NCBI GenBank assembly: GCA_001804885.1
Contig: MHBM01000157.1
Location: 16,629-80,628, forward strand
Origin: Lentisphaerae bacterium RIFOXYA12_FULL_48_11
Lineage (GTDB): Bacteria > Verrucomicrobiota > Kiritimatiellia > UBA8416 > YA12-FULL-48-11
Reading direction: 5' to 3'
DNA length: 64,000 nucleotides
The notes under the pieces are model-generated. The model saw nothing but the letters and a program-made list of their open reading frames with translations, was not told where the DNA came from and made no database searches. The translations under genes and the position numbers were made by a program. Below, one piece after another: positions 12,857-28,152 of the stretch; position 1 is the stretch's first letter, and each line of letters begins with the position of its first letter.

Positions 12857-13948
12857 TTACCCCGCCGCCTGCGAGAGGAACTGGCCGGATTCCATTGCGC
12901 GGAGAATTTCCTCCCTTGTTTTGGACCAAGCCTCAAACGGATCAAACACCTTGGACTGATGTACTAATCGCTCGGTTGCGAGCTGGCTCGCAAGCCTCTC
13001 GCGCTCATCCCGGCTCAATATTTTGAGCTGTGGTCTGGGATGCGCAGCCGGTTTCGCGATTACCACCGTTTCACTGCTTGTCTCAACCGGCATCCCGGCT
13101 TTGCGAGCCGCCCGCATCCGAACATAACTTCGCATAAACCGCGCACCCACCGCTTTCACTATGTCTGCATTAACATGCAACTGATTATTTGTTTCCGCCG
13201 CCTTGAGCGACAACTTCGCCATCTTGTTGATCAGGCGCGGCATGCCAGATTCCGAGAGTTTCCATATCTCGTCATAGGCCGCCTCCGTGAACATTGAATC
13301 GCCGGACAGACCGGCTCGCTCCAGGCGATGCTCGATATAGTCCTTCATTGTTTCACGTGAGTCGATACCCTCTATCCTGCAATAGACCCCGATTCTCTGG
13401 AAAAGGTTTTCCCTTCTCGGATCCTCTAACCTTTTCCCGAGTTCCGGTTGTCCGGCGAGAATTATCGTAAGCAGGTTCTGATGATCATCCTGCATATTTG
13501 TCAGTAGACGCAGGCTGTCGAGGTTATGTGGTCTTATGGCATTTCCCTCGTCAATAAATACAACTACTCTTTTCCCTGCGTCACTTGTTTCAAAAAGAAT
13601 TCTGTTGAATTCTTCAAACAATCTGTCTTTTCGCCTCTCCAGACACTCCTTTCCCTCCAGTTGTCCCACAACTTCCCTCAACAGTTGGGGGAAAGTCATG
13701 TCCGGATTGGTTACGAAGGCAATCCTGTACTTGTTTTTATTCAGGGCATTGAGAACTATACGCAGGCACATGGTTTTGCCGACCCCAACGGGACCGACCA
13801 CCACGGCCAGACATTCATTCCCTTCTTCGACTGCAAACAGCAGCTCAGAAACTGAACTGTCCACACTCTGGTGCATATCGAAATACATTTCAGGATCAGG
13901 CACACTGTTGAACGGTTGCTTTTTTAGCTTCCAATATTCCAAGTACAT
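12857..13948 (-). CDS. ExeA/GspA-like AAA ATPase (secretion/PEP-CTERM-type ATPase family)
   Basis: N-terminus MYLEYWKLKKQPFNSVPDPEMYF...GPVGVGKT (Walker A) and VVFIDEGN (Walker B) match the ExeA/MshM N-terminal ATPase. It has no peptidoglycan-binding domain and no secretion-system partners nearby. Confidence 0.6.
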   Translation of the reverse strand: MYLEYWKLKKQPFNSVPDPEMYFDMHQSVDSSVSELLFAVEEGNECLAVVVGPVGVGKTMCLRIVLNALNKNKYRIAFVTNPDMTFPQLLREVVGQLEGKECLERRKDRLFEEFNRILFETSDAGKRVVVFIDEGNAIRPHNLDSLRLLTNMQDDHQNLLTIILAGQPELGKRLEDPRRENLFQRIGVYCRIEGIDSRETMKDYIEHRLERAGLSGDSMFTEAAYDEIWKLSESGMPRLINKMAKLSLKAAETNNQLHVNADIVKAVGARFMRSYVRMRAARKAGMPVETSSETVVIAKPAAHPRPQLKILSRDERERLASQLATERLVHQSKVFDPFEAWSKTREEILRAMESGQFLSQAAG

Positions 13949-14187
13949 ATAATCACCCCGATTTGTTATTAAGCATAAACCGCGCCGAGGCTTGCCAACT
14001 CAATCATTTCCTGGGAAGTCTATGTTGTGAATATTAAGCATATTTCCTCGCAAATACCCTGAATTCTATTGTTAATAACTTTTTGTTTCAGCATACCCCG
14101 ATTATCACGGTTGCGAAACTTACCTTGGTCTAACCTCTGTCTGGACACAGTCATCATCTGGTGCTATATGTTCGTTGAGAAAGCAAG

Positions 14188-14634
14188 ATGAGCAAACATG
14201 GTCTAAACTGGTGGCACGGAATCATATTAATCAGCCTCATTGTCATTTTCCCAATGATCGGCACCTACTGGTACTCACTTCTTAACCCGGCAAGAGCTTA
14301 CACCGTCCAAAAACATGCCTTTAAGTCTAATCACGACGCACTGCTTACAGCATGCCGCGATATGTTAATCAACAGGGATAAATTCAGGAATGACTGGCAA
14401 GGCAATCCAAATCTGGCCGAAGGGGATAAAGTTCTTGATGCCATAAAAGGCATCACTCCCGATGTACCTAAGCCCATACGCGAATTGAAACCCAAGTATA
14501 TAATCCTGCGAGAAAACAAGGTGGAAATCCATCTGTCCGGTCCATATACTCAATACATACAGGGTTTCAAGGAAGGCATTCCCGGAGACGGAAGCAAAAT
14601 GCTTACAAACGGTCTCTGGTACGTGCGCAACTGA
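14188..14634 (+). CDS. hypothetical membrane-anchored protein
   Basis: A single N-terminal transmembrane helix (WWHGIILISLIVIFPMIGTYWY) is followed by a soluble domain with no recognisable motifs. The gene is divergent from the ExeA-like gene. Confidence 0.4.
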   Translation: MSKHGLNWWHGIILISLIVIFPMIGTYWYSLLNPARAYTVQKHAFKSNHDALLTACRDMLINRDKFRNDWQGNPNLAEGDKVLDAIKGITPDVPKPIRELKPKYIILRENKVEIHLSGPYTQYIQGFKEGIPGDGSKMLTNGLWYVRN

Positions 14635-14996
14635 GAAGTCTTAACACAGGTCAGCTCTTCATGAATCCAGAATCTGAAATCAAGGAATAGAGGCGGCACT
14701 TTTCCCTTTTCAATCACAGCAACAATGTCTTCGAATTCCTTGGTTGCCTGTTCGGTCAGCTTGTTTTCCGTTCCAAATTCACCCCTATCCCGCGATAAGG
14801 TTTACCATCCCTAACAAGTACACCATTCCTGACCGACAGACCGTACTGCCCCTCCTCAGCCCCATCTGAACAGAAGCAGCCAAACACAAGCCACGTTATA
14901 ATGATCCATAACATACGACACCTGTCCTATCCGTATACGGAATTAAACAACTGAAAGCTCTGGACATAAAGTTTTTTATCATGGAAATTATCTGAC

Positions 14997-17568: not shown

Positions 17569-18351
17569 TTATTCTTTTACCCTGTCTACTTTTAACAGTT
17601 GATCATCCGGATTCATTTTCCACACCTTGAAACAGAAGTCCATCATCAGGTTCGTCGGCGACTTTCCACCTGGCAGCCTTGTAAAACCGTTCTTCTGGCT
17701 GCCCCACAGCTGACACTCAACATTCTTCTCATCGCATGCTTCTTTCAGCATCGAGGCGTATTTGGAATTATGGAGAAGATCTTCCGTTCCCGACGACTGG
17801 AAGATATAGACAGGCGGACAACCTGGTTTTAGATATGGCAGCACAAGCTCTGCCGTCCCCATCGGCTGCTGGTAGGCACCCACAGCGCTGACATAGGTAG
17901 TATTGCAGCCCAGCCATTCGGCAATCAATGCCCCGGCAGATGAACCATAAACTGCGATTCGCGTCTTATCAATGTTCCATTTCTTAGCATTGGCCACAAT
18001 GAAGTCCATCGCTTTCCTGCAGTGCTTCATTATCTCCAGGTAGTCGTTGTTCGTGTGCTGGAGAAAAGGATAATTCACAGAAGCAAACGAAACTCCTTTT
18101 GGCAGATAGCCATCCAGAAATTTCCATCCAGAGATAATGCTTTTATCCCCCTTACTGAAACCGCCGCCATGAAAAATGACAACCAGTGGTGCAGGCTTGC
18201 TGGATTCTGCCTTCCAGAAATCAAGCTTGTTCCTCTCGTGCTCACCATAGGCCACATCCGAAAAAGTCGGCTTGACCTGCCCTGCTCCAGCAAATGGCAG
18301 CCATGAAATAAAGGCAGTTATAACAGTCAGCAGACAAATCCCACAATTCAT
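17569..18351 (-). CDS. secreted alpha/beta-hydrolase esterase
   Basis: Signal peptide present. Motifs VVIFHGGGFSKG and YGSSAGA (G-x-S-x-G) match the fold. Confidence 0.6.
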   Translation of the reverse strand: MNCGICLLTVITAFISWLPFAGAGQVKPTFSDVAYGEHERNKLDFWKAESSKPAPLVVIFHGGGFSKGDKSIISGWKFLDGYLPKGVSFASVNYPFLQHTNNDYLEIMKHCRKAMDFIVANAKKWNIDKTRIAVYGSSAGALIAEWLGCNTTYVSAVGAYQQPMGTAELVLPYLKPGCPPVYIFQSSGTEDLLHNSKYASMLKEACDEKNVECQLWGSQKNGFTRLPGGKSPTNLMMDFCFKVWKMNPDDQLLKVDRVKE

Positions 18352-19754
18352 GGTACACTTACGTATACTTTTTCAAGCGGATACCATCCACTCACAGTCC
18401 TGCCATCAATGCCAAGCCGAATCACCGGCCGATCAGACCCATTCCCCTCAACCAATGCTACAGCAAGACGATAGCCGCCGGTTACATGTTTTTTGAATAT
18501 AACTTTTGTTTCTTCAATTACAGGCTTGTCTGGCATCCACTTGGAAGGCCTGCATGCCTCCAGCCAGCAGATATCAACAGGAAGATCAGATCCATCCAGT
18601 AATGCCAGCGCAACAGTACAGGGAACATAAACCGGGGCTACACCTTCATTGAACCAGGTAAAACGCGCTGTAAAGGAAGAACCACTGGTTATCTTCTCAG
18701 GGAATGCAGCTTCTTTCAAAACAAAGTGATATCCCATCCGATTGGCCAGTTTTTCTATCAAAGGCCTCTCAGCCTCCAGAAATCTCAACGATTCCTTTCC
18801 GCCATGGCTCAGGCCAATATAACTGGGCTTACCATTCTCGACACAGTCAACCAGCTTATGACCATGTCCCTTGTCGCCTTTACCGTCCCACCACCCTTTT
18901 TCCTTCATCCATGTATATGAACCGAAGAATTCAAACACACCCGGCGCATAACCAAATGCCCGCGCCGTTTCGCGGCCATCACTGTTTCCGCATATACCGT
19001 CCCGGCGTGCCGCAACACCCTGCTGCACAGCCCAGTCATACACAGATTGATGTGCTTTCGCTTCAGCAGATATGCAAAGCCTTGTCTTTTTGAATGAATC
19101 CAGATGCATTTGAACGTGGTGCTTGAATTCCTCCGCGGTCAATCCTTTACCGCCAAAGGGATGCATGTGTCCCTCGCCCCAGTTTCCATACGACCTGATG
19201 TCAATAAAAGCAATTCGTCCGTCACCATCAAACTTTTTACCCATTGCAGAGAGAAAGTTCCGCAGTTTCTCCAAGAATACAGGATCATAAAAATCCGGGA
19301 CAGCCTTCTGGCCAGGCACCCCGGCGTAGGGATTTGACACATCTTTCATGTCGATCATCCGGCACTTTGCACCTGCATCAAAAACCCATTTTGGCGTAAC
19401 GTATGGGTCTTTTGAGTGGGAATTGGCACACATCACTCCAAACGAGAATTGCTTGCCTGCCTTCGCCCATCCTGCCATTGCATCATCAATCTTCTTCCAG
19501 TCGTATTGCCCCTCCACAGGTTCAATCTCGGACCACGCGAAACGTTTATAGCCAATGGTTCCAATCGCCATGGCCGCAGGATCCTGCCAGTCAGCCAGCC
19601 CGTAGAGCACCCATCCCTTGCCCGGATTGAGCAGTATGTCGCCGCACGGCTTGGGAACGATGGTCTTTGTCCCTGGCGCTTCAACTCCTGAAAGCATCGT
19701 AACGAACGCGAGACACAAATATATGACAATGGAACTGAATATTTTCATTAGCAT
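18348..19754 (-). CDS. secreted TIM-barrel glycoside-hydrolase-like protein (DUF4874/DUF4832-type)
   Basis: Signal peptide present. NPGKGWVLYGL...FAWSEIEPVEGQYDW resembles the GH-like DUF4874/4832 family. A 4-bp overlap with the downstream esterase suggests an operon. Confidence 0.4.
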   Translation of the reverse strand: MLMKIFSSIVIYLCLAFVTMLSGVEAPGTKTIVPKPCGDILLNPGKGWVLYGLADWQDPAAMAIGTIGYKRFAWSEIEPVEGQYDWKKIDDAMAGWAKAGKQFSFGVMCANSHSKDPYVTPKWVFDAGAKCRMIDMKDVSNPYAGVPGQKAVPDFYDPVFLEKLRNFLSAMGKKFDGDGRIAFIDIRSYGNWGEGHMHPFGGKGLTAEEFKHHVQMHLDSFKKTRLCISAEAKAHQSVYDWAVQQGVAARRDGICGNSDGRETARAFGYAPGVFEFFGSYTWMKEKGWWDGKGDKGHGHKLVDCVENGKPSYIGLSHGGKESLRFLEAERPLIEKLANRMGYHFVLKEAAFPEKITSGSSFTARFTWFNEGVAPVYVPCTVALALLDGSDLPVDICWLEACRPSKWMPDKPVIEETKVIFKKHVTGGYRLAVALVEGNGSDRPVIRLGIDGRTVSGWYPLEKVYVSVP

Positions 19755-20035
19755 CCTCCTTGATTCCCTCGAATCATTCCGGCTTCAAAATAGCCTGCAA
19801 ATTCTCCCTGTTCAGCAATGCGGCTTCCTGCCAGTGTTCCAGGAAAGGTTTTACATCTGAAGCAAGCACAGCATCATCAAGATTCTGTACTTTATTAATA
19901 AGGAGATTTCTCCAATTTGCCGAATCCAGCGCCTCTTTGCCCTGTGTCTGGTCCAGCGCATTCTGGAGCTGAGCAAGGTTCGGTTCAACAGGAGTTTTCC
20001 AGCCTTTGAACATGGGGTATTTGGACGTTGAAACA

Positions 20036-21044
20036 TTACTTTCCGAGAATCGCTGCCTTACCTTTTGCTGTAAGCCGGTATTTCTGCAAACGGCTGTTGG
20101 GCTTCTCAGGTATCGTCATTTCAAGCAGTCCCATTTGTAACAGCGGATTTACGATCTGATCTCTAAATTTAGTACGATTGGTTCTATCCGCTAGTTTCAT
20201 CAATTCACTTATTGCGCTGTCCTTCTTGCATTTTCCCAAAATTCTAACTTGGTCCCGACTTGGTCCCGAATCAATGCTGTCATCGAAGACTTTGATTTGA
20301 ATATCCGTAGTGTTCCCATAGTCCCTGTGGCAGATGGCATTTACAACAGCTTCACGCAATGCCTCCAAGGGATAATCCCATATCTCGTCGCGACGGGGCT
20401 TGCCGGTTATCACAAACCTTACATTCGTGTGCTTTTTCAGGAAATCCATCGTTTCGTCAATCTGGCTGATTATGGGACCCTCAATCATGCGATTATCGGT
20501 AATATCAATCTCCGTCCTGAACCTCCCGCAATGAACGGTCGCCTGTCCTAACGGCGATTGCGGCGATTTACCAAATAACAGAACTGCAGCCCAAGTTGGA
20601 TACCCATCACGCATCAGCTCAAGCTTCTCAAGCACTTCCTGAGGCTTTGATCCCTTCGGGAAGTTCCGCCGACCGATGTTTGAAGCTAAATCCATATAGC
20701 GTCTGACACGAACAGATACCGGCTTAACAGGATACCTGAATGACGATTATGTCTTTCTTTTCAATCGAAACATGTTGAATATCCGGAATGACCCGAGGCT
20801 CCGTACAGGATGCAATTTTATCTGCAATTTCCCTTATGGTGTTTTTTCCAATAGTGAGTCCGGTAATGGCACCTGAGTCACTCACGCCTATCAGCAATGT
20901 GCCTCCACTTGCATTGGCAAATGCACCGATCGAGTGAAGAGCCTCTTCTTGAAAACTTTCCTTAAATTCAAGCGTCTGGCTCTCGCCCTCTTCGACCAGG
21001 CCTTTTATCTCATTAATATTCATAATTCCGGCTGCAATATACAT
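20036..21044 (-). pseudogene. AlbA_2 (Schlafen-like) + HATPase_c_4 + wHTH transcriptional-regulator gene (COG2865-like), split by a frameshift
   Basis: The N-terminal ORF (20724-21044; ...LEFKESFQEEALHSIGAFANASGGTLLIGV) is an AlbA_2 domain. The C-terminal ORF (20036-20695; ...ALREAVVNAICHRDY...TIPEKPNSRLQKYRLTAKG) has the HATPase_c_4 and wHTH tail. The C-terminal frame is open back to 20746, so it overlaps the N-terminal stop at 20724-20726. A single +/-1 indel between 20700 and 20746 would fuse the two. Confidence 0.6.
20089..20117. repeat. direct repeat copy 1 (aacggctgttgggcttctcaggtatcgtc)
   Basis: 27 of 29 positions are identical to copy 2 at 21351-21379. This copy lies inside the 3' coding end of the regulator gene. 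Confidence 0.8.
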
Positions 21045-21330
21045 AAGACGTCCTCACTGTTCAAAAGTATTGTGTGGCCCGTTTTGCCCGCGTTCTGCCG
21101 GCCATATGTACTGGAACTATTGTGATGAATTCCTTCCGAATAGGCTTCATTTTACCCCCGATATCCGATACATTCTAAATATGATTGGCTTACAAATAAC
21201 GCAGTGTTTTCAGATATATTTTACAATTAGCTACTATCATTATGATGCAAATGGCAACGTAGGCTAGCGAAAGGCTAAATGTGACCGGATTCTGCATGTT
21301 TGCTGGGAAAAATAGCAGATATCCCGACAT

Positions 21331-21424
21331 TCAACCAGCAGAAATCAATAAATGGCTGTTGGGCTTTTCAGGTATCGTCCATTCGATAAGATTGTATACC
21401 GGATCAGATGGAATGGTTATGCAT
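21331..21424 (-). pseudogene. remnant 3' end (~30 codons) of a second COG2865-like regulator gene
   Basis: An open stretch CITIPSDPVYNLIEWTIPEKPNSHLLISAG* with no start codon lies immediately downstream of ftsZ. It is homologous at both protein and DNA level to the C-terminus of the adjacent regulator gene. Confidence 0.5.
21351..21379. repeat. direct repeat copy 2 (aatggctgttgggcttttcaggtatcgtc)
   Basis: Same orientation as copy 1 and 1.26 kb away. On the minus strand it encodes ...LIEWTIPEKPNSHLLISAG*, which matches the ...LLEMTIPEKPNSRLQ C-terminal peptide of the regulator. Confidence 0.8.
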
Positions 21425-21452
21425 TAACACAGAACAAGGTACGGCAGGATTA

Positions 21453-22610
21453 TTATCGTTCGATCGCAATACCACGCCTGACAAATGTCGGAATATCAAA
21501 ATCTTCACCATCCAAGACAGTAGGCTCAACATCCTTGAAACGGCCCTTGCCGGTTGGTTCCAGCTTCAGTTTTGTCTGAAGATCCTTGGCCCTGGATTTG
21601 ATTTTTTTCGTCTTGTCCGCCGTTTCAGGCTCAGGAGCTTTGACCGGAGCAGGATCGGAAGACCACTGTTCAGAAGCTATGACGGTTATAGTAATGCGAT
21701 CATGCACATCATTATCAACGACTGTACCCATGAAAAGTTTTGCATCCTTCTGCTTTCGGGCAGAAATGGCTTTCATCACATCATCGATTTCCTTGAGAGT
21801 CAGATCCGAACCGCCCGCAATACTGACCAGCAGTGAACGTGCATTCGCAAGCACCTCACCCTTCTCCAGGAGTGATCCTTCAAGAATACTTTTCAGGGCG
21901 GCCTCGACACGCCCCGGTCCCACACCCACCCCGTAGCCGAATGTACATACTCCGCCACCGTTCCTGACAATGGCCTGCAGATGAGCGAAATCAAGACTGA
22001 TGAAACCAGGCCGCATGACCAGCTTCCAGATAGATGCTATGCCGTCACTGATTACCTCATCAGCCTTTTCAAAAGAATCGGCAACATTGGAAACACCTAT
22101 GAATTCAAACAGCCTTTCGTTGGGAACAACAATGAGAGCATCGGCGATTTCCCTGAGAGCCAGAACTCCCTGCTCCGCACACTCCTTTTTCTGTTGTCCC
22201 TCGAAATTGAACGGGAGAACGGCAAAGCAGAGAGTCAGGGCTCCTGCCTCACGTGCAGCCTTCAAGACCACCGGCGCCGCCCCACTGCCCGTTCCGCCGC
22301 CAAGTGCAACAACAAAAATCACAAGGTCAATACCTTCAAAAAGGCTGCGCACCATCTCAATGTCGTCTTCCGCGGCCAGCCGGCCCAGATTGACATCGCC
22401 GCCTGTTCCTAGGCCAGCTGTCCTGACCGTGCCAATCTGGAGCTTGGCGGTAGCATGCGACGAAGCAAGTACTTCCATGTCTGTGCTTATCGCGGCAATC
22501 GAGGGAGCACCTGGACAGGTACGGGCAATCCAGTCTACCACTTTGCAACCGCCTCCGCCTAGCCCGACTATGCTTACTTTTCGTTCGTGCATTAAACTGC
22601 CCCTTTGCAA
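21453..22610 (-). CDS. ftsZ: cell division GTPase FtsZ
   Basis: The tubulin signature GGGTGSGAAPV is present, with the N-terminal GLGGGG motif. The C-terminal conserved peptide is DIPTFVRR. Confidence 0.92.
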   Translation of the reverse strand: MQRGSLMHERKVSIVGLGGGGCKVVDWIARTCPGAPSIAAISTDMEVLASSHATAKLQIGTVRTAGLGTGGDVNLGRLAAEDDIEMVRSLFEGIDLVIFVVALGGGTGSGAAPVVLKAAREAGALTLCFAVLPFNFEGQQKKECAEQGVLALREIADALIVVPNERLFEFIGVSNVADSFEKADEVISDGIASIWKLVMRPGFISLDFAHLQAIVRNGGGVCTFGYGVGVGPGRVEAALKSILEGSLLEKGEVLANARSLLVSIAGGSDLTLKEIDDVMKAISARKQKDAKLFMGTVVDNDVHDRITITVIASEQWSSDPAPVKAPEPETADKTKKIKSRAKDLQTKLKLEPTGKGRFKDVEPTVLDGEDFDIPTFVRRGIAIER

Positions 22611-24848: not shown

Positions 24849-25748
24849 TTATTTATCATCAAGACAGGCTGTATTCATGATCCTGTCACAAAGGCTGGAA
24901 AAGCCTATTCCGGCCTGTGCCGCAGCCTTCGGAAGCAGACTGGTTTCCGTAAAACCTGGAATATTATTCAGTTCCAGGACATACAACCGTCCATCGCTCG
25001 CAAGACGAAAATCTACACGTCCCATTCCACGGCATCCAAGCACCTTAAATGTCTTAAGAGTAATTTCACGGCATGCCTTGACTAAACCCTCTTCTATCGG
25101 TGCAGGAACAAGATATTGACTGGCACCCTTGGTATATTTGGCATCAAACCCATACCAATCATCCGGCGCAACTATTTCCACAACAGGCAACACATCCTTA
25201 TCCACAACGCCAACAGTCAACTCACGACCGCTTATATATGCTTCAATAATCAGTTCCGGACCATAAGAGAACGAGTCTATCAGGGCTCTTTCCCATTCGG
25301 ATTCCTGGTTAACCTTATGTACCCCAATACTTGACCCCTGGCAGGCCGGCTTAATGACTACAGGTAAATCCAAGGATCTTTTCTCACCCTTTCTCAAAAC
25401 TTCGTACGCCGGAGTTGGGATTCCATTGGCAATAAATGACTTTTTGCTTAAAACCTTGTCAAATGACTGCCTGCTGGCTGCGGGTCCAGACCCGGTATAT
25501 GGCAAGCCCCTCTTCTCTAGAATCTCCTGAACCCGGCCATCCTCACCGAACTCTCCATGCAAGGCGACAAACACAGCTTCTATTCCAGTTGGTATCTGAA
25601 AATCCACGCCTTTGACATCAATTTCCTCAACCTCATACCCAGCTTCCTTCAAACCTCCAGCCACCGCCTTACCTGAACGCAAAGAAACCGCTCGCTCAGA
25701 AGAAGCGCCCCCCATTAATACTGCTACCCTTTTAAACCGCTTATTCAA
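24849..25748 (-). CDS. ddl: D-alanine--D-alanine ligase
   Basis: N-terminus VAVLMGGASSEREVSLRSG and ATP-grasp motifs (GEDGRVQ, ELNNIPGFT) are present. An 8-bp overlap with upstream murC/murB. Confidence 0.88.
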   Translation of the reverse strand: MNKRFKRVAVLMGGASSERAVSLRSGKAVAGGLKEAGYEVEEIDVKGVDFQIPTGIEAVFVALHGEFGEDGRVQEILEKRGLPYTGSGPAASRQSFDKVLSKKSFIANGIPTPAYEVLRKGEKRSLDLPVVIKPACQGSSIGVHKVNQESEWERALIDSFSYGPELIIEAYISGRELTVGVVDKDVLPVVEIVAPDDWYGFDAKYTKGASQYLVPAPIEEGLVKACREITLKTFKVLGCRGMGRVDFRLASDGRLYVLELNNIPGFTETSLLPKAAAQAGIGFSSLCDRIMNTACLDDK

Positions 25749-28152
25749 GAAACTTCACCTCCGTATCCAGACAAATCCCTGTCCGGGCGATCACATCCTC
25801 ACGAATTTTGTTAATCAAAGCCAATACATCTGATGCACATGCACCGGGCTGTGTAATGATAACATTGGCGTGTTTCTTCGAAATAGACGCACCGCCAACC
25901 CCAGCCCCTTTGAGACCAGACCGTTCAATCAGCTTTCCCGCAAAATCTCCTGACGGGTTCTTGAAGATAGATCCCGCCGAACGCAGACCCTTCATCCATG
26001 CCCGCCGTCTTACGATCCCCATTCTCCGCTGTCTGATACTTTTAACGCTGTCCGGAGAAACTTTAAAACCAACCTCTATTAATATTCGATCCCGAAGAGC
26101 CTTGCAGTCCCTGTAAGCAAACCCGGCCGATATCCCGCGCAATGTACACTCGGAGCCATCCTTATTCAAACAGTGAATCCATGAAATATATTTACTTATT
26201 TCATGTCCCCAAGCTCCGGCATTCATTCTCACGGCACCACCGACAGTCCCCGGAATCCCCTCAAGAAATTCCAGCCCGGCCAGCGCATGATCATCCAACC
26301 ACTTCAGCAACTTCGCATTGGAAACTCCGCTCCCGGCAACAACGATATTCTTATCGATAGTAATCCCGCCGAAATCACCACCCGACAGGCGTACGGCGAC
26401 TCCACGAATCCCCAGATCACTTATCACAACATTGCTTCCACCACCTAGCAATGTTAACGGTATCTTATTTTCATGGGTCCACATCAGAACCGTCCTCAAA
26501 TCCATCAGCGAGTCGGTGTTAATAAATACATCTGCCGGACCTCCCACGCCCATCGTGGTTTTGCCAGCCATCATCTCGTTAAGTCTAACTCTTGCCCCGT
26601 GATTAAGCTTAGATGATAAATTTCCACTCTTCATTAATCTGTTTCTTAAATCGGCAACCGGCAACCTGTCCTCCAAAGCCTTGGCGACGGAGGATCTGCA
26701 TTCCGCAATCTCTTCCCTGGCCCACCCGGCGATCTTCTCAACATCACCTGCCCCGATAATAAGAAACAAATCATTTCTTCGGAGCATGGTTCTGAAATAC
26801 ATCCAGGCCTGCTCCAATGATGTCGCCACGGAGACCTTCATCATGTTTGCAGTCTTCTGCCTTCTGAAGTGTCCGTACAAGTCCCAGATTGAACCGCCTT
26901 TTAAGGGTTTCTCAGATGCCTCATAAACAGGAACCAGAACCAGTTCATCAATATCTTTAAACGCGGCCGGAAAAGCAGGTCCTAATGCCAGGGTTCTTGT
27001 ATAACGATGCGGCTGAAAAACCGCCACCAAGCGGGAATGTTTTAATTTTGAGGCCGTCTGTACCAACGCCTTGATTTCCGAAGGATGGTGGGCATAATCA
27101 GAAATCACCGTTATTCCGTCTTTCTCTGCTATCCGCTCAAATCTCCGTCGCGGCAGGGTGACACCAGCCAAACCGCTCCTTATGTGTTCAAACGTCAGAC
27201 CTAATTCCAGGCCCACGGCTGTCGCAGCAAGCGCATTCAGAATATTATGTATCCCTGGAACAGGCAGAGATATGCGTCCTAACTTACATCCGTCACAGAG
27301 CACCGTGAAACTCGAACTTTCAACAAGTTGTGTCAGATCAACTCCGCGGATACTGGCTGTTTTATCCAGCCCATAAGACAGAGTCTTCTTTAAACCTCTA
27401 CACAAAGATGCAGCCCTGCAGTCATCAGCACAATAGATGGTTTTCTGTCGCGCACCTTTGATAAAGCTTCTGAAGCAGTTCTCAAATGCCGTGACACTGT
27501 CAAAATGCTCCATGTGGTCAAACTCGATATTTGTCACAACCGCAATATCAGGAGCATAAAGTTCCAAGGTACCATCGCTTTCATCAGCTTCGACAACAAC
27601 AACATCTTCTCCTTGAAAACATTTCGATCTGCCTATTTCTGAGCGTCCCCGGAATCCTGCTACGCCACCAAGCGCTACTGCCTCTCCGCCTATACACCAT
27701 GAAGGTTGCCGTTCGGCGCTCTTAAGTAACTGGGTGATAAAAGTCGACGTAGTAGTCTTACCATGAGTGCCACCGACTGCCACTGATGTAAAACTCTTGA
27801 TTAATTCCGGGAGCACCATCCCTCTCGAGAAAACTGGCAAGCCTGCCTTCCTGGCACAGGTAATTTCCGGACCATCCAACGGAACGGCTGCACTACGTAT
27901 AACCCAATCCACATCTTTCCTAATATGCTTCGGGTCATGCCCCGCCACGAACTTGACGCCGCGTTCACGCAACCACTCCGACATACGGCCAGGAACCAGA
28001 TCACAACCGCTGACTTTAAAACCCCGTGCTTTCAGAAGAAAAGCCAGCCCCGCCATTCCCACCCCGCAAACACCTGCAAAATGCACATGTCCATTCCCTT
28101 TTGACAGGAGGGTTTTAATTTGAAAGCTGGTTTTATTCTGTGATGCGGTCAT
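25741..28152 (-). CDS. murC/murB: fused UDP-N-acetylmuramate--L-alanine ligase (MurC, N-terminal) / UDP-N-acetylenolpyruvoylglucosamine reductase (MurB, C-terminal)
   Basis: Residues 1-~470 carry the MurC Rossmann start HFAGVCGVGMAGLAFLL, the Mur-ligase P-loop VAVGGTHGKTTTS and EADESDGT. Residues ~480-803 carry the MurB FAD domain (GVGGPADVFINTDSLMDLRTVL...LLGGGSNVV) and MurB C-terminus (KKHANVII). There is no stop between the two halves. Confidence 0.88.
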   Translation of the reverse strand: MTASQNKTSFQIKTLLSKGNGHVHFAGVCGVGMAGLAFLLKARGFKVSGCDLVPGRMSEWLRERGVKFVAGHDPKHIRKDVDWVIRSAAVPLDGPEITCARKAGLPVFSRGMVLPELIKSFTSVAVGGTHGKTTTSTFITQLLKSAERQPSWCIGGEAVALGGVAGFRGRSEIGRSKCFQGEDVVVVEADESDGTLELYAPDIAVVTNIEFDHMEHFDSVTAFENCFRSFIKGARQKTIYCADDCRAASLCRGLKKTLSYGLDKTASIRGVDLTQLVESSSFTVLCDGCKLGRISLPVPGIHNILNALAATAVGLELGLTFEHIRSGLAGVTLPRRRFERIAEKDGITVISDYAHHPSEIKALVQTASKLKHSRLVAVFQPHRYTRTLALGPAFPAAFKDIDELVLVPVYEASEKPLKGGSIWDLYGHFRRQKTANMMKVSVATSLEQAWMYFRTMLRRNDLFLIIGAGDVEKIAGWAREEIAECRSSVAKALEDRLPVADLRNRLMKSGNLSSKLNHGARVRLNEMMAGKTTMGVGGPADVFINTDSLMDLRTVLMWTHENKIPLTLLGGGSNVVISDLGIRGVAVRLSGGDFGGITIDKNIVVAGSGVSNAKLLKWLDDHALAGLEFLEGIPGTVGGAVRMNAGAWGHEISKYISWIHCLNKDGSECTLRGISAGFAYRDCKALRDRILIEVGFKVSPDSVKSIRQRRMGIVRRRAWMKGLRSAGSIFKNPSGDFAGKLIERSGLKGAGVGGASISKKHANVIITQPGACASDVLALINKIREDVIARTGICLDTEVKFLE

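What the first reader, a model, noticed from the sequence alone, without database searches (positions are those of the whole stretch)
20036..21452. Frameshift-split AlbA_2/COG2865 regulator bracketed by a 29-bp direct repeat, with a relic gene end next to ftsZ
Three independent observations coincide here. (1) An AlbA_2 (Schlafen-like) + HATPase_c_4 + wHTH regulator gene is broken into two overlapping frames at about 20700-20746. (2) A 29-bp direct repeat (27/29 identical) sits at 20089-20117, inside the gene's 3' end, and again at 21351-21379, just after the ftsZ stop. (3) The upstream copy is not a simple att-like repeat. Translated on the minus strand it gives LIEWTIPEKPNSHLLISAG*, a diverged duplicate of the regulator's own C-terminal peptide LLEMTIPEKPNSRLQ. 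So a second copy's 3' end survives there. The ~1.2 kb between the repeats is visibly AT-richer than the flanks, especially 21150-21300. Together this suggests a recently acquired or rearranged cassette that recombined at the conserved 3' end of a resident paralogue, right after the terminal dcw gene. COG2865/Schlafen-like proteins recur in accessory and defence-island contexts.
Basis: partly seen in the sequence, partly recalled or inferred. Interest (0 to 1): 0.6.

Follow-up and report, generated by a model that had tools for sequence, protein, structure and literature searches.

The report
Decayed accessory-gene remnants after ftsZ
The 1.7 kb just downstream of the cell-division gene ftsZ holds three broken remnants of accessory, mobile-element or defence-type genes at a spot where this genome's gene order differs from its relatives; this is ordinary gene decay, not a working system.

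Summary
The AlbA_2/COG2865 gene is split, the 27/29 direct repeat exists (31/35 when extended), and the upstream copy translates to LIEWTIPEKPNSHLLISAG*. The split is not a sequencing error: at least 12 contigs read, 8 checked at 99.9-100% DNA identity from several metagenome assemblies, carry it.

The gene is more damaged than reported. Against intact ~480-aa homologues it has an 8-nt deletion (the frameshift) plus two in-frame deletions of 144 nt and ~303 nt. These remove the end of AlbA_2 and half of HATPase_c_4.

The next ORF downstream (79 aa) is a C-terminal stump of an AbiEii toxin.

Six relatives (FtsZ 60-88% identical) all have ftsZ followed by convergent larA-like and, where the contig reaches, FHA-MoxR genes. 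The window has neither, so the remnants sit at a lineage-specific synteny break.

The closest intact homologues lie beside tyrosine recombinases, tRNA genes or defence genes.

Best reading: a gene graveyard left by accessory DNA, with the repeat being the conserved 3' ends of two paralogous genes, one almost wholly lost. A recent cassette recombining at that 3' end is not shown. Interest is low.

The parts
21453..22610 (-). ftsZ, the last gene of the dcw cluster. It is intact and ends ..FVRRGIAIER* as in relatives. Synteny with relatives stops at its stop codon.
21350..21393 (-). Relic of the conserved 3' end of a gene with a Fic-like_C module (..LIEWTIPEKPNSH). About 44 nt are recognisable. 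Homology ends abruptly inside the conserved motif at 21349/21350. This is direct-repeat copy B (21350-21384).
   Evidence: 93% over 30 nt to the gene end; 77% over 44 nt to L014
21045..21349 (.). AT-rich spacer (GC 0.41). It has no ORF of note, no Rfam match, no similarity to integrases, to the rest of the window or to homologous loci.
20724..21044 (-). 5' piece of the COG2865 pseudogene (106 aa). The AlbA_2 domain is truncated at profile position ~90 of 118.
20734..20735 (-). Lesion 1: an 8-nt deletion relative to homologues (CAGG|TATCC). This causes the frameshift.
   Evidence: (alignment A3, columns 350-357)
20707..20708 (-). Lesion 2: a 144-nt (48-codon) in-frame deletion that removes the end of AlbA_2 and the linker (GRCYRR...DLDLAR).
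20036..20695 (-). 3' piece of the COG2865 pseudogene (219-aa ORF; its frame is open from about 20750). It holds the middle region, the N-terminal half of HATPase_c_4 and the Fic-like_C wHTH.
20272..20273 (-). Lesion 3: a ~303-nt (101-codon) in-frame deletion that removes the C-terminal half of HATPase_c_4. It lies directly beside the 11-nt tandem repeat.
20250..20271 (-). Two copies of an 11-nt tandem unit (TCGGGACCAAG on the minus strand), coding the SGPSRDQV linker. Homologues have three copies.
20088..20122 (-). Direct-repeat copy A, inside the pseudogene's 3' end (codes ..EMTIPEKPNSRL..).
19774..20013 (-). 79-aa ORF: a C-terminal stump of an AbiEii nucleotidyltransferase toxin. The NTase domain is missing.
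   Evidence: PADLOC AbiEii positions 194-264 of 270, E 1.8e-7
18348..19754 (-). Flanking DUF4832 / GH42-like gene, the first gene of a roughly 20-kb carbohydrate-degradation region that replaces the larA-moxR neighbourhood seen in relatives.

Best explanation
The interval 19774-21452 is non-functional debris of accessory (mobile-element or defence-type) genes. It lies at a lineage-specific synteny breakpoint directly 3' of ftsZ.

Reading along the minus strand it contains:
(i) a ~44-nt relic of the conserved 3' end of a gene with a Fic-like_C module;
(ii) a spacer;
(iii) a COG2865-type gene (AlbA_2 - HATPase_c_4 - Fic-like_C) inactivated by an 8-nt frameshifting deletion and two large in-frame deletions;
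(iv) a 5'-truncated AbiEii toxin gene.

The 'direct repeat' is simply the most conserved stretch of the 3' ends of two same-orientation paralogous genes. The upstream gene has been almost entirely removed by the deletion or rearrangement that also separated ftsZ from its ancestral larA-like/moxR neighbours.

Shown: the lesions, the relic, the AbiEii stump, the synteny break, and the mobile or defence context of intact homologues.
Inferred: that the genes arrived on accessory DNA, the order of events, and the loss of function.
For: - Lesions against intact ~480-aa homologues. 2589 homologues pass E<=1e-10, and most of the 120 listed are about 450-500 aa.
- The same split appears on at least 12 contigs; the 8 fetched are near-identical in DNA.
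- Pfam finds only a truncated AlbA_2 and Fic-like_C, not HATPase_c_4.
- Relic vs gene is 31/36 in the core. They share codon choices absent from five homologues elsewhere, to which the relic is 23-27/36.
- The relic also matches L014 and L031 gene ends.
- The 79-aa ORF is an AbiEii C-terminus.
- All six relatives have the larA-like gene directly after ftsZ (L018 and L021 only in part). Four of them (L001, L017, L019, L020) also reach the FHA-MoxR gene. Neither gene is in the window.
- Intact homologues lie directly after tyrosine recombinases (L014, L029), near Cap4, tRNA-Phe, or tRNA-Gln plus a primase-helicase.
Against: - No recombinase, transposase or att-like structure survives in the window, so a mobile origin is inferred from homologues only.
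- Both large deletions are in-frame. This happens by chance about 1 time in 9, but it could mean a shortened protein was under selection for a while.
- All available copies of this locus are about 100% identical, so there is no dN/dS or empty-site evidence.
- The nearest relative with a different arrangement is distant (FtsZ 88%).
Confidence: 0.75

Rival explanations
1. One reading: a small cassette (spacer plus COG2865 gene body) entered by recombination within the conserved ~35-nt 3' motif of a resident Fic-like_C-bearing gene. This Campbell-type or module-exchange event would duplicate the motif on both sides.
For: - The repeat brackets exactly the spacer plus gene body.
- The relic's homology stops sharply inside the conserved motif.
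- Family-wide, C-terminal wHTH modules are shuffled relative to the N-terminal part (Spearman -0.07 over 496 pairs). The modules are flanked by tandem-repeat linkers and the conserved end, so recombination around this motif does occur in the family.
Against: - The body of the supposed resident gene is absent; at most ~60 nt lie between the ftsZ stop and the relic. An extra deletion is therefore needed anyway, which makes this no simpler than tandem paralogues plus a deletion.
- No recombinase is present.
- In L014 the element's 62-nt flanking repeats lie outside the COG2865 3' end.
- No extra motif copies occur near homologues in 10 other loci.
- The gene is old enough to carry three lesions.
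Confidence: 0.13
2. The split gene is still in use, either as two separate small proteins (a 106-aa AlbA_2 fragment and a 219-aa wHTH protein starting at the ATG at 20695) or as a shortened regulator.
For: - Both ORFs are intact and identical across samples.
- Both large deletions keep the frame.
- Another natural short variant exists: P0072, 382 aa, lacking HATPase_c_4.
Against: - AlbA_2 is cut at about 90 of 118 profile positions, and half of the HATPase_c_4 fold is missing.
- Identity across samples reflects one clonal population, not conservation.
- The 8-nt deletion is not a slippery-site frameshift.
- No promoter or terminator signal rises above shuffled controls.
Confidence: 0.08
3. An assembly or sequencing artefact creates the frameshift and the repeat.
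For: The source is a metagenome-assembled genome.
Against: - The DNA across the whole interval is 99.9-100% identical in the 8 fetched contigs from different samples and assemblers.
- The lesion is an 8-nt deletion, not a homopolymer error.
Confidence: 0.02

Closest known systems
COG2865-type 'putative DNA-binding / ATP-binding' proteins (Pfam SLFN_AlbA_2 PF04326 + HATPase_c_4 PF13749 + Fic-like_C PF21247), often auto-annotated 'ATP-dependent DNA helicase RecG' or 'transcriptional regulator'
   Same: About 70-80% identity to intact members in the retained N-terminal part (81% to P0004). The domain order and the C-terminal TIPxKPNSRLQKYRLT end are the same.
   Different: It is about 145 aa shorter, frameshifted, and its HATPase_c_4 is no longer detectable. 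It is a pseudogene, not a functional member.
AbiE (type IV toxin-antitoxin / abortive infection) AbiEii nucleotidyltransferase toxin
   Same: The 79-aa ORF aligns to the C-terminal ~70 positions of the AbiEii profiles.
   Different: There is no NTase domain and no AbiEi partner, so it is only a stump. Its nearest homologues are likewise ~100-aa fragments.
Small integrative elements carrying paired tyrosine recombinases and a terminal COG2865 gene (example: L014, 7.9 kb, 62-nt flanking repeats)
   Same: The closest intact homologues (P0012, P0004) are the last gene of, or directly follow recombinases in, such elements, next to housekeeping genes.
   Different: The window has no recombinase, no primase-like gene and no element-type flanking repeats. 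Its repeat lies in the gene's own 3' end.
Gene remnants at synteny breakpoints or decaying genomic islands (general phenomenon)
   Same: Several truncated accessory genes are packed between conserved core genes and a differently arranged flank.
   Different: Nothing notable.

Membership tests
COG2865 (AlbA_2 - HATPase_c_4 - Fic-like_C) protein family | N-terminal SLFN_AlbA_2 domain | tested here: met
   Pfam E 4e-19, but only profile positions 1-90 of 118.
COG2865 (AlbA_2 - HATPase_c_4 - Fic-like_C) protein family | HATPase_c_4 domain | tested here: not met
   No Pfam hit at E<=0.01. The alignment shows that only the HRDY-containing N-terminal half remains.
COG2865 (AlbA_2 - HATPase_c_4 - Fic-like_C) protein family | C-terminal Fic-like_C winged helix | tested here: met
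   Pfam E 1.3e-14, profile positions 2-64 of 64.
COG2865 (AlbA_2 - HATPase_c_4 - Fic-like_C) protein family | Single uninterrupted ORF of about 450-500 aa | tested here: not met
   Two ORFs of 106 and 219 aa in different frames, with an 8-nt deletion plus 144-nt and ~303-nt deletions.
Integrated mobile element bounded by att-type direct repeats | Recombinase (integrase or transposase) gene or remnant inside or beside the repeats | tested here: not met
   tblastn with the integrases of L014 and L029 finds nothing in the spacer or the whole window. The window has no tRNA genes.
Integrated mobile element bounded by att-type direct repeats | An empty site in related genomes that lacks the segment between the repeats | tested here: inconclusive
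   Relatives have a wholly different neighbour (the larA-like gene) after ftsZ, not an empty version of this site. All copies of this locus are identical.
AbiE type IV toxin-antitoxin system | Full-length AbiEii with its nucleotidyltransferase domain | tested here: not met
   Only profile positions 194-264 of 270 are present. No Pfam hit for the 79-aa ORF itself.
AbiE type IV toxin-antitoxin system | Adjacent AbiEi antitoxin gene | tested here: not met
   The upstream neighbour is the COG2865 pseudogene, and the AbiEi-like protein of L035 has no match in the window.
Programmed ribosomal frameshift gene | The frameshift site is conserved in homologues, with a slippery sequence | tested here: not met
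   The homologues aligned across the site are continuous there; the window lacks 8 nt.
Silent-cassette or shufflon-type variable 3' module system | A stored alternative module body next to the expressed gene, plus a recombinase | tested here: not met
   The relic holds only the conserved end, with no recognisable wHTH body. No recombinase is present.

The most novel reading that the evidence does not exclude
The relic and repeat are the footprint of a general mechanism in which COG2865-, Fic- and other-type genes exchange their C-terminal winged-helix 'specificity' modules. The exchange would use recombination anchored on the conserved ~40-nt TIPDKPNSRLQKYRLT-coding end and on the 11-12-nt tandem-repeat linkers. 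This locus would then be a failed or decayed exchange product. The family-wide mosaicism is real; its mechanism, and its link to this relic, are untested.
Probability: 0.12. Interest if true: 0.5.

Novelty: already known. Interest (0 to 1): 0.2.

Why it matters
There is little consequence for this locus itself. It corrects three 'hypothetical protein' annotations (A2283_05585, 05590 and 05595 of Lentisphaerae bacterium RIFOXYA12_FULL_48_11) to pseudogene fragments. It also marks the 3' side of ftsZ as a rearrangement point in this Kiritimatiellae-like lineage.

The by-product may be worth more: COG2865-family proteins carry shuffled C-terminal wHTH modules between repeat linkers and a conserved end. 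This could deserve its own study if it has not been described.

Tried and rejected
- Integrase remnants in the spacer or the whole window: none.
- tRNA or tmRNA integration targets in the window: none.
- Rfam on 19700-21600: nothing.
- Promoter and terminator scan: not above shuffles; no terminator after ftsZ.
- Similarity of the spacer to the rest of the window or to any homologous locus: none beyond the relic.
- Homology between the 79-aa ORF and the small ORFs that follow COG2865 genes elsewhere (L014, L029): none.
- Att-in-3'-end model checked on L014: its repeats lie elsewhere.
- Extra motif copies near homologues, including four viral contigs: none.
- Attempt to find where larA-moxR went in this genome: hits could not be assigned to the organism, and the two best candidate contigs were too short.
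- The 14-nt inverted repeat 21318-21331 / 21484-21497 is what chance would give (about one such pair expected in the 3.8 kb scanned, my estimate), so I dismissed it.
- NCBIfam gives no family name.
- PADLOC matches of the COG2865 body are only to shared domains in pAgo-associated fusion proteins, which is not evidence of membership.

Full report
OBSERVATION

The window carries the end of a dcw cluster on the minus strand: ddl, ftsQ, ftsA, then ftsZ at 21453-22610. The closest assembled relative is a Kiritimatiellae MAG with FtsZ 83% identical. The three small ORFs discussed here are identical to OGV65259-61 of 'Lentisphaerae bacterium RIFOXYA12_FULL_48_11', where they are annotated as hypothetical proteins.

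- The 29-mer pair is 27/29 and extends to 31/35 (20088-20122 vs 21350-21384).
- The core occurs only twice in the window, with none expected by chance.
- The minus-strand translation after the ftsZ stop reads ..CITIPSDPVYNLIEWTIPEKPNSHLLISAG*.
- The regulator-like gene is in two frames. ORF 20724-21044 (106 aa) matches AlbA_2 at E 4e-19, and ORF 20036-20695 (219 aa) matches Fic-like_C at E 1e-14.

The split is not an error. The same two ORFs are called on at least 12 contigs. The 8 fetched come from several samples and assemblers and are 99.9-100% identical to the window in DNA.

The claimed AT-richness is modest. GC is 0.446 between the repeats against 0.475 for the window, and 8.5% of equal-sized windows are as low.

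ANATOMY OF THE GENE

The fused translation finds 2589 homologues at E<=1e-10. Nearly all of the best hits are 450-500 aa with AlbA_2 + HATPase_c_4 + Fic-like_C. Protein and DNA alignments to the closest of these (P0004, P0001, P0002 and others) show three lesions (coordinates checked).
- An 8-nt deletion at 20734/20735, which is the frameshift.
- A 144-nt in-frame deletion at 20707/20708. It removes the last part of AlbA_2 and the following linker.
- A ~303-nt in-frame deletion at 20272/20273. It removes the C-terminal half of HATPase_c_4, which is why Pfam no longer detects that domain.

The third junction abuts an 11-nt tandem repeat (20250-20271). Homologues carry three copies of this unit, where it encodes the GTKSGLSRDQV linker. 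With a truncated AlbA_2 domain, half a HATPase_c_4 domain and a frameshift, this is a pseudogene.

THE RELIC

The upstream repeat copy is homologous to the 3' ends of family members from other organisms as well as to the resident gene's end (44 nt at 77% to L014). So it is a genuine fragment of a gene end with a Fic-like_C module.

In the 36-nt core, gene vs relic is 31/36. That is no higher than the resident gene against unrelated homologues (26-31/36). However, the relic is only 23-27/36 to those homologues, and it shares ACG ATA CCT GAR (Glu rather than Asp) uniquely with the resident gene. The two copies are therefore intragenomic paralogues.

Downstream of ..PNS(H/R)L the relic loses all similarity in the middle of the otherwise conserved RLQKYRLT motif, so there is a breakpoint at 21349/21350. 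Upstream, the wHTH module is too variable in this family to tell how much remains. At most ~60 nt separate the relic from the ftsZ stop.

THE NEIGHBOUR

The 79-aa ORF at 19774-20013 starts 22 nt after the pseudogene's stop. It is a C-terminal stump of an AbiEii nucleotidyltransferase toxin. It matches PADLOC AbiEii positions 194-264 of 270 at E 1.8e-7, and five of its six non-identical homologues carry PF08843. No NTase domain and no AbiEi partner are present.

COMPARATIVE CONTEXT

In six relatives with FtsZ 60-88% identical (L001, L017-L021), the gene directly after ftsZ is a convergent larA-like gene. In four of them the contig also reaches an FHA-MoxR ATPase gene. The window has neither gene anywhere, and similarity to L001 ends at the ftsZ stop. 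Instead, a ~20-kb run of carbohydrate-active genes follows the remnants. The remnants thus mark a lineage-specific synteny break.

Intact homologues sit in accessory DNA.
- P0012 is the last gene of a 7.9-kb element with two tyrosine recombinases and 62-nt flanking repeats, next to thrS.
- P0004, the closest homologue in the N-terminal part (81%), directly follows the same kind of recombinase.
- Others lie near a Cap4 nuclease, near tRNA-Phe, or near tRNA-Gln plus a primase-helicase.

No recombinase remnant is left in the window.

EXPLANATION

The most economical account runs as follows. Accessory DNA carrying at least two same-orientation genes with Fic-like_C ends, plus an AbiE module, came to lie downstream of ftsZ. 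Deletions or a rearrangement then removed the upstream gene except for its conserved end, cut AbiEii, separated ftsZ from larA/moxR, and riddled the remaining COG2865 gene with deletions. On this account the 'direct repeat' is just the best-conserved 35 nt of two paralogous gene ends. I put this at about 0.75.

It also finds no support in the one related element whose ends could be defined, nor in other loci, none of which has a second motif copy. I put it at about 0.13. Residual function of the pieces (about 0.08) and artefact (about 0.02) are the remaining rivals.

WHAT KEEPS THE CASSETTE IDEA ALIVE

Across 32 family members, identity in the N-terminal part and identity in the C-terminal wHTH module are uncorrelated (Spearman -0.07 over 496 pairs). 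P0004, for example, is 81% identical to the window in the N-terminal part but only 20% in the module, whereas P0005 is 68% and 70%. The modules fall into discrete types. They are preceded by 11-12-nt tandem-repeat linkers and followed by the conserved end. One protein has two modules in tandem, and in a viral contig the module sits on a different N-terminal architecture. Module exchange therefore happens in this family. Whether the conserved 3' motif is the crossover site, and whether this relic is such a footprint, was not tested.

VERDICT

The object is ordinary: decayed accessory-gene fragments at a synteny breakpoint. Novelty: already known kind. Interest: 0.2.

Noticed in passing
L014:1684-9661: A 7.9-kb putative integrative element bounded by a 62-nt direct repeat (87%). 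Each copy starts 37 nt into an ORF (302 aa and 82 aa). The element carries a 773-aa protein with a weak primase-associated domain hit, two tyrosine recombinases and an intact COG2865 gene as its last gene, next to thrS-infC-rpmI-rplT.
   Followed up: partly
Proteins P0001-P0083 (homologues of window 20036-21044): C-terminal winged-helix modules of COG2865-family proteins are shuffled relative to the N-terminal part (no correlation of identities). They are flanked 5' by 11-12-nt tandem repeats (peptides such as GQVTGQVTGQV, PESQPESQPES, DPVSDPVSDPV, GTKSGLSRDQV) and 3' by the conserved TIPDKPNSRLQKYRLT end. P0064 carries two modules in tandem.
   Followed up: partly
L040:8860-8883 (viral contig IMGVR_UViG_3300010356_002547): The same conserved C-terminal module ends a protein whose N-terminus shows no AlbA_2-like motif, so the module appears to be shared between protein architectures. 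I did not identify the N-terminal domain.
   Followed up: no
L035:4252-5309, L038:1-630: AbiEii C-terminal ORFs of about 100 aa recur in unrelated genomes. One sits beside an AbiEi-like gene and another beside a separate N-terminal AbiEii piece. Either truncated AbiE systems are common, or this C-terminal piece is kept as a small ORF.
   Followed up: partly
window 21335-21349 vs 20073-20087: Immediately after the repeat, the relic has ATTTCTGC where the gene has its reverse complement GCAGAAAT. This could be a micro-inversion or chance.
   Followed up: no
window 25741-28152 (-): An 803-aa ORF combines Mur ligase (MurC-type) and MurB domains: a MurC-MurB fusion inside the dcw cluster, according to the precomputed Pfam list for the identical gene in L006. 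From memory, not checked here, such a fusion has been described in Verrucomicrobia.
   Followed up: no
window 12857-14996: An AAA_22/AAA_16 ATPase gene (12857-13948, minus strand) is followed by about 1 kb with no ORF of at least 150 aa. I did not examine it.
   Followed up: no
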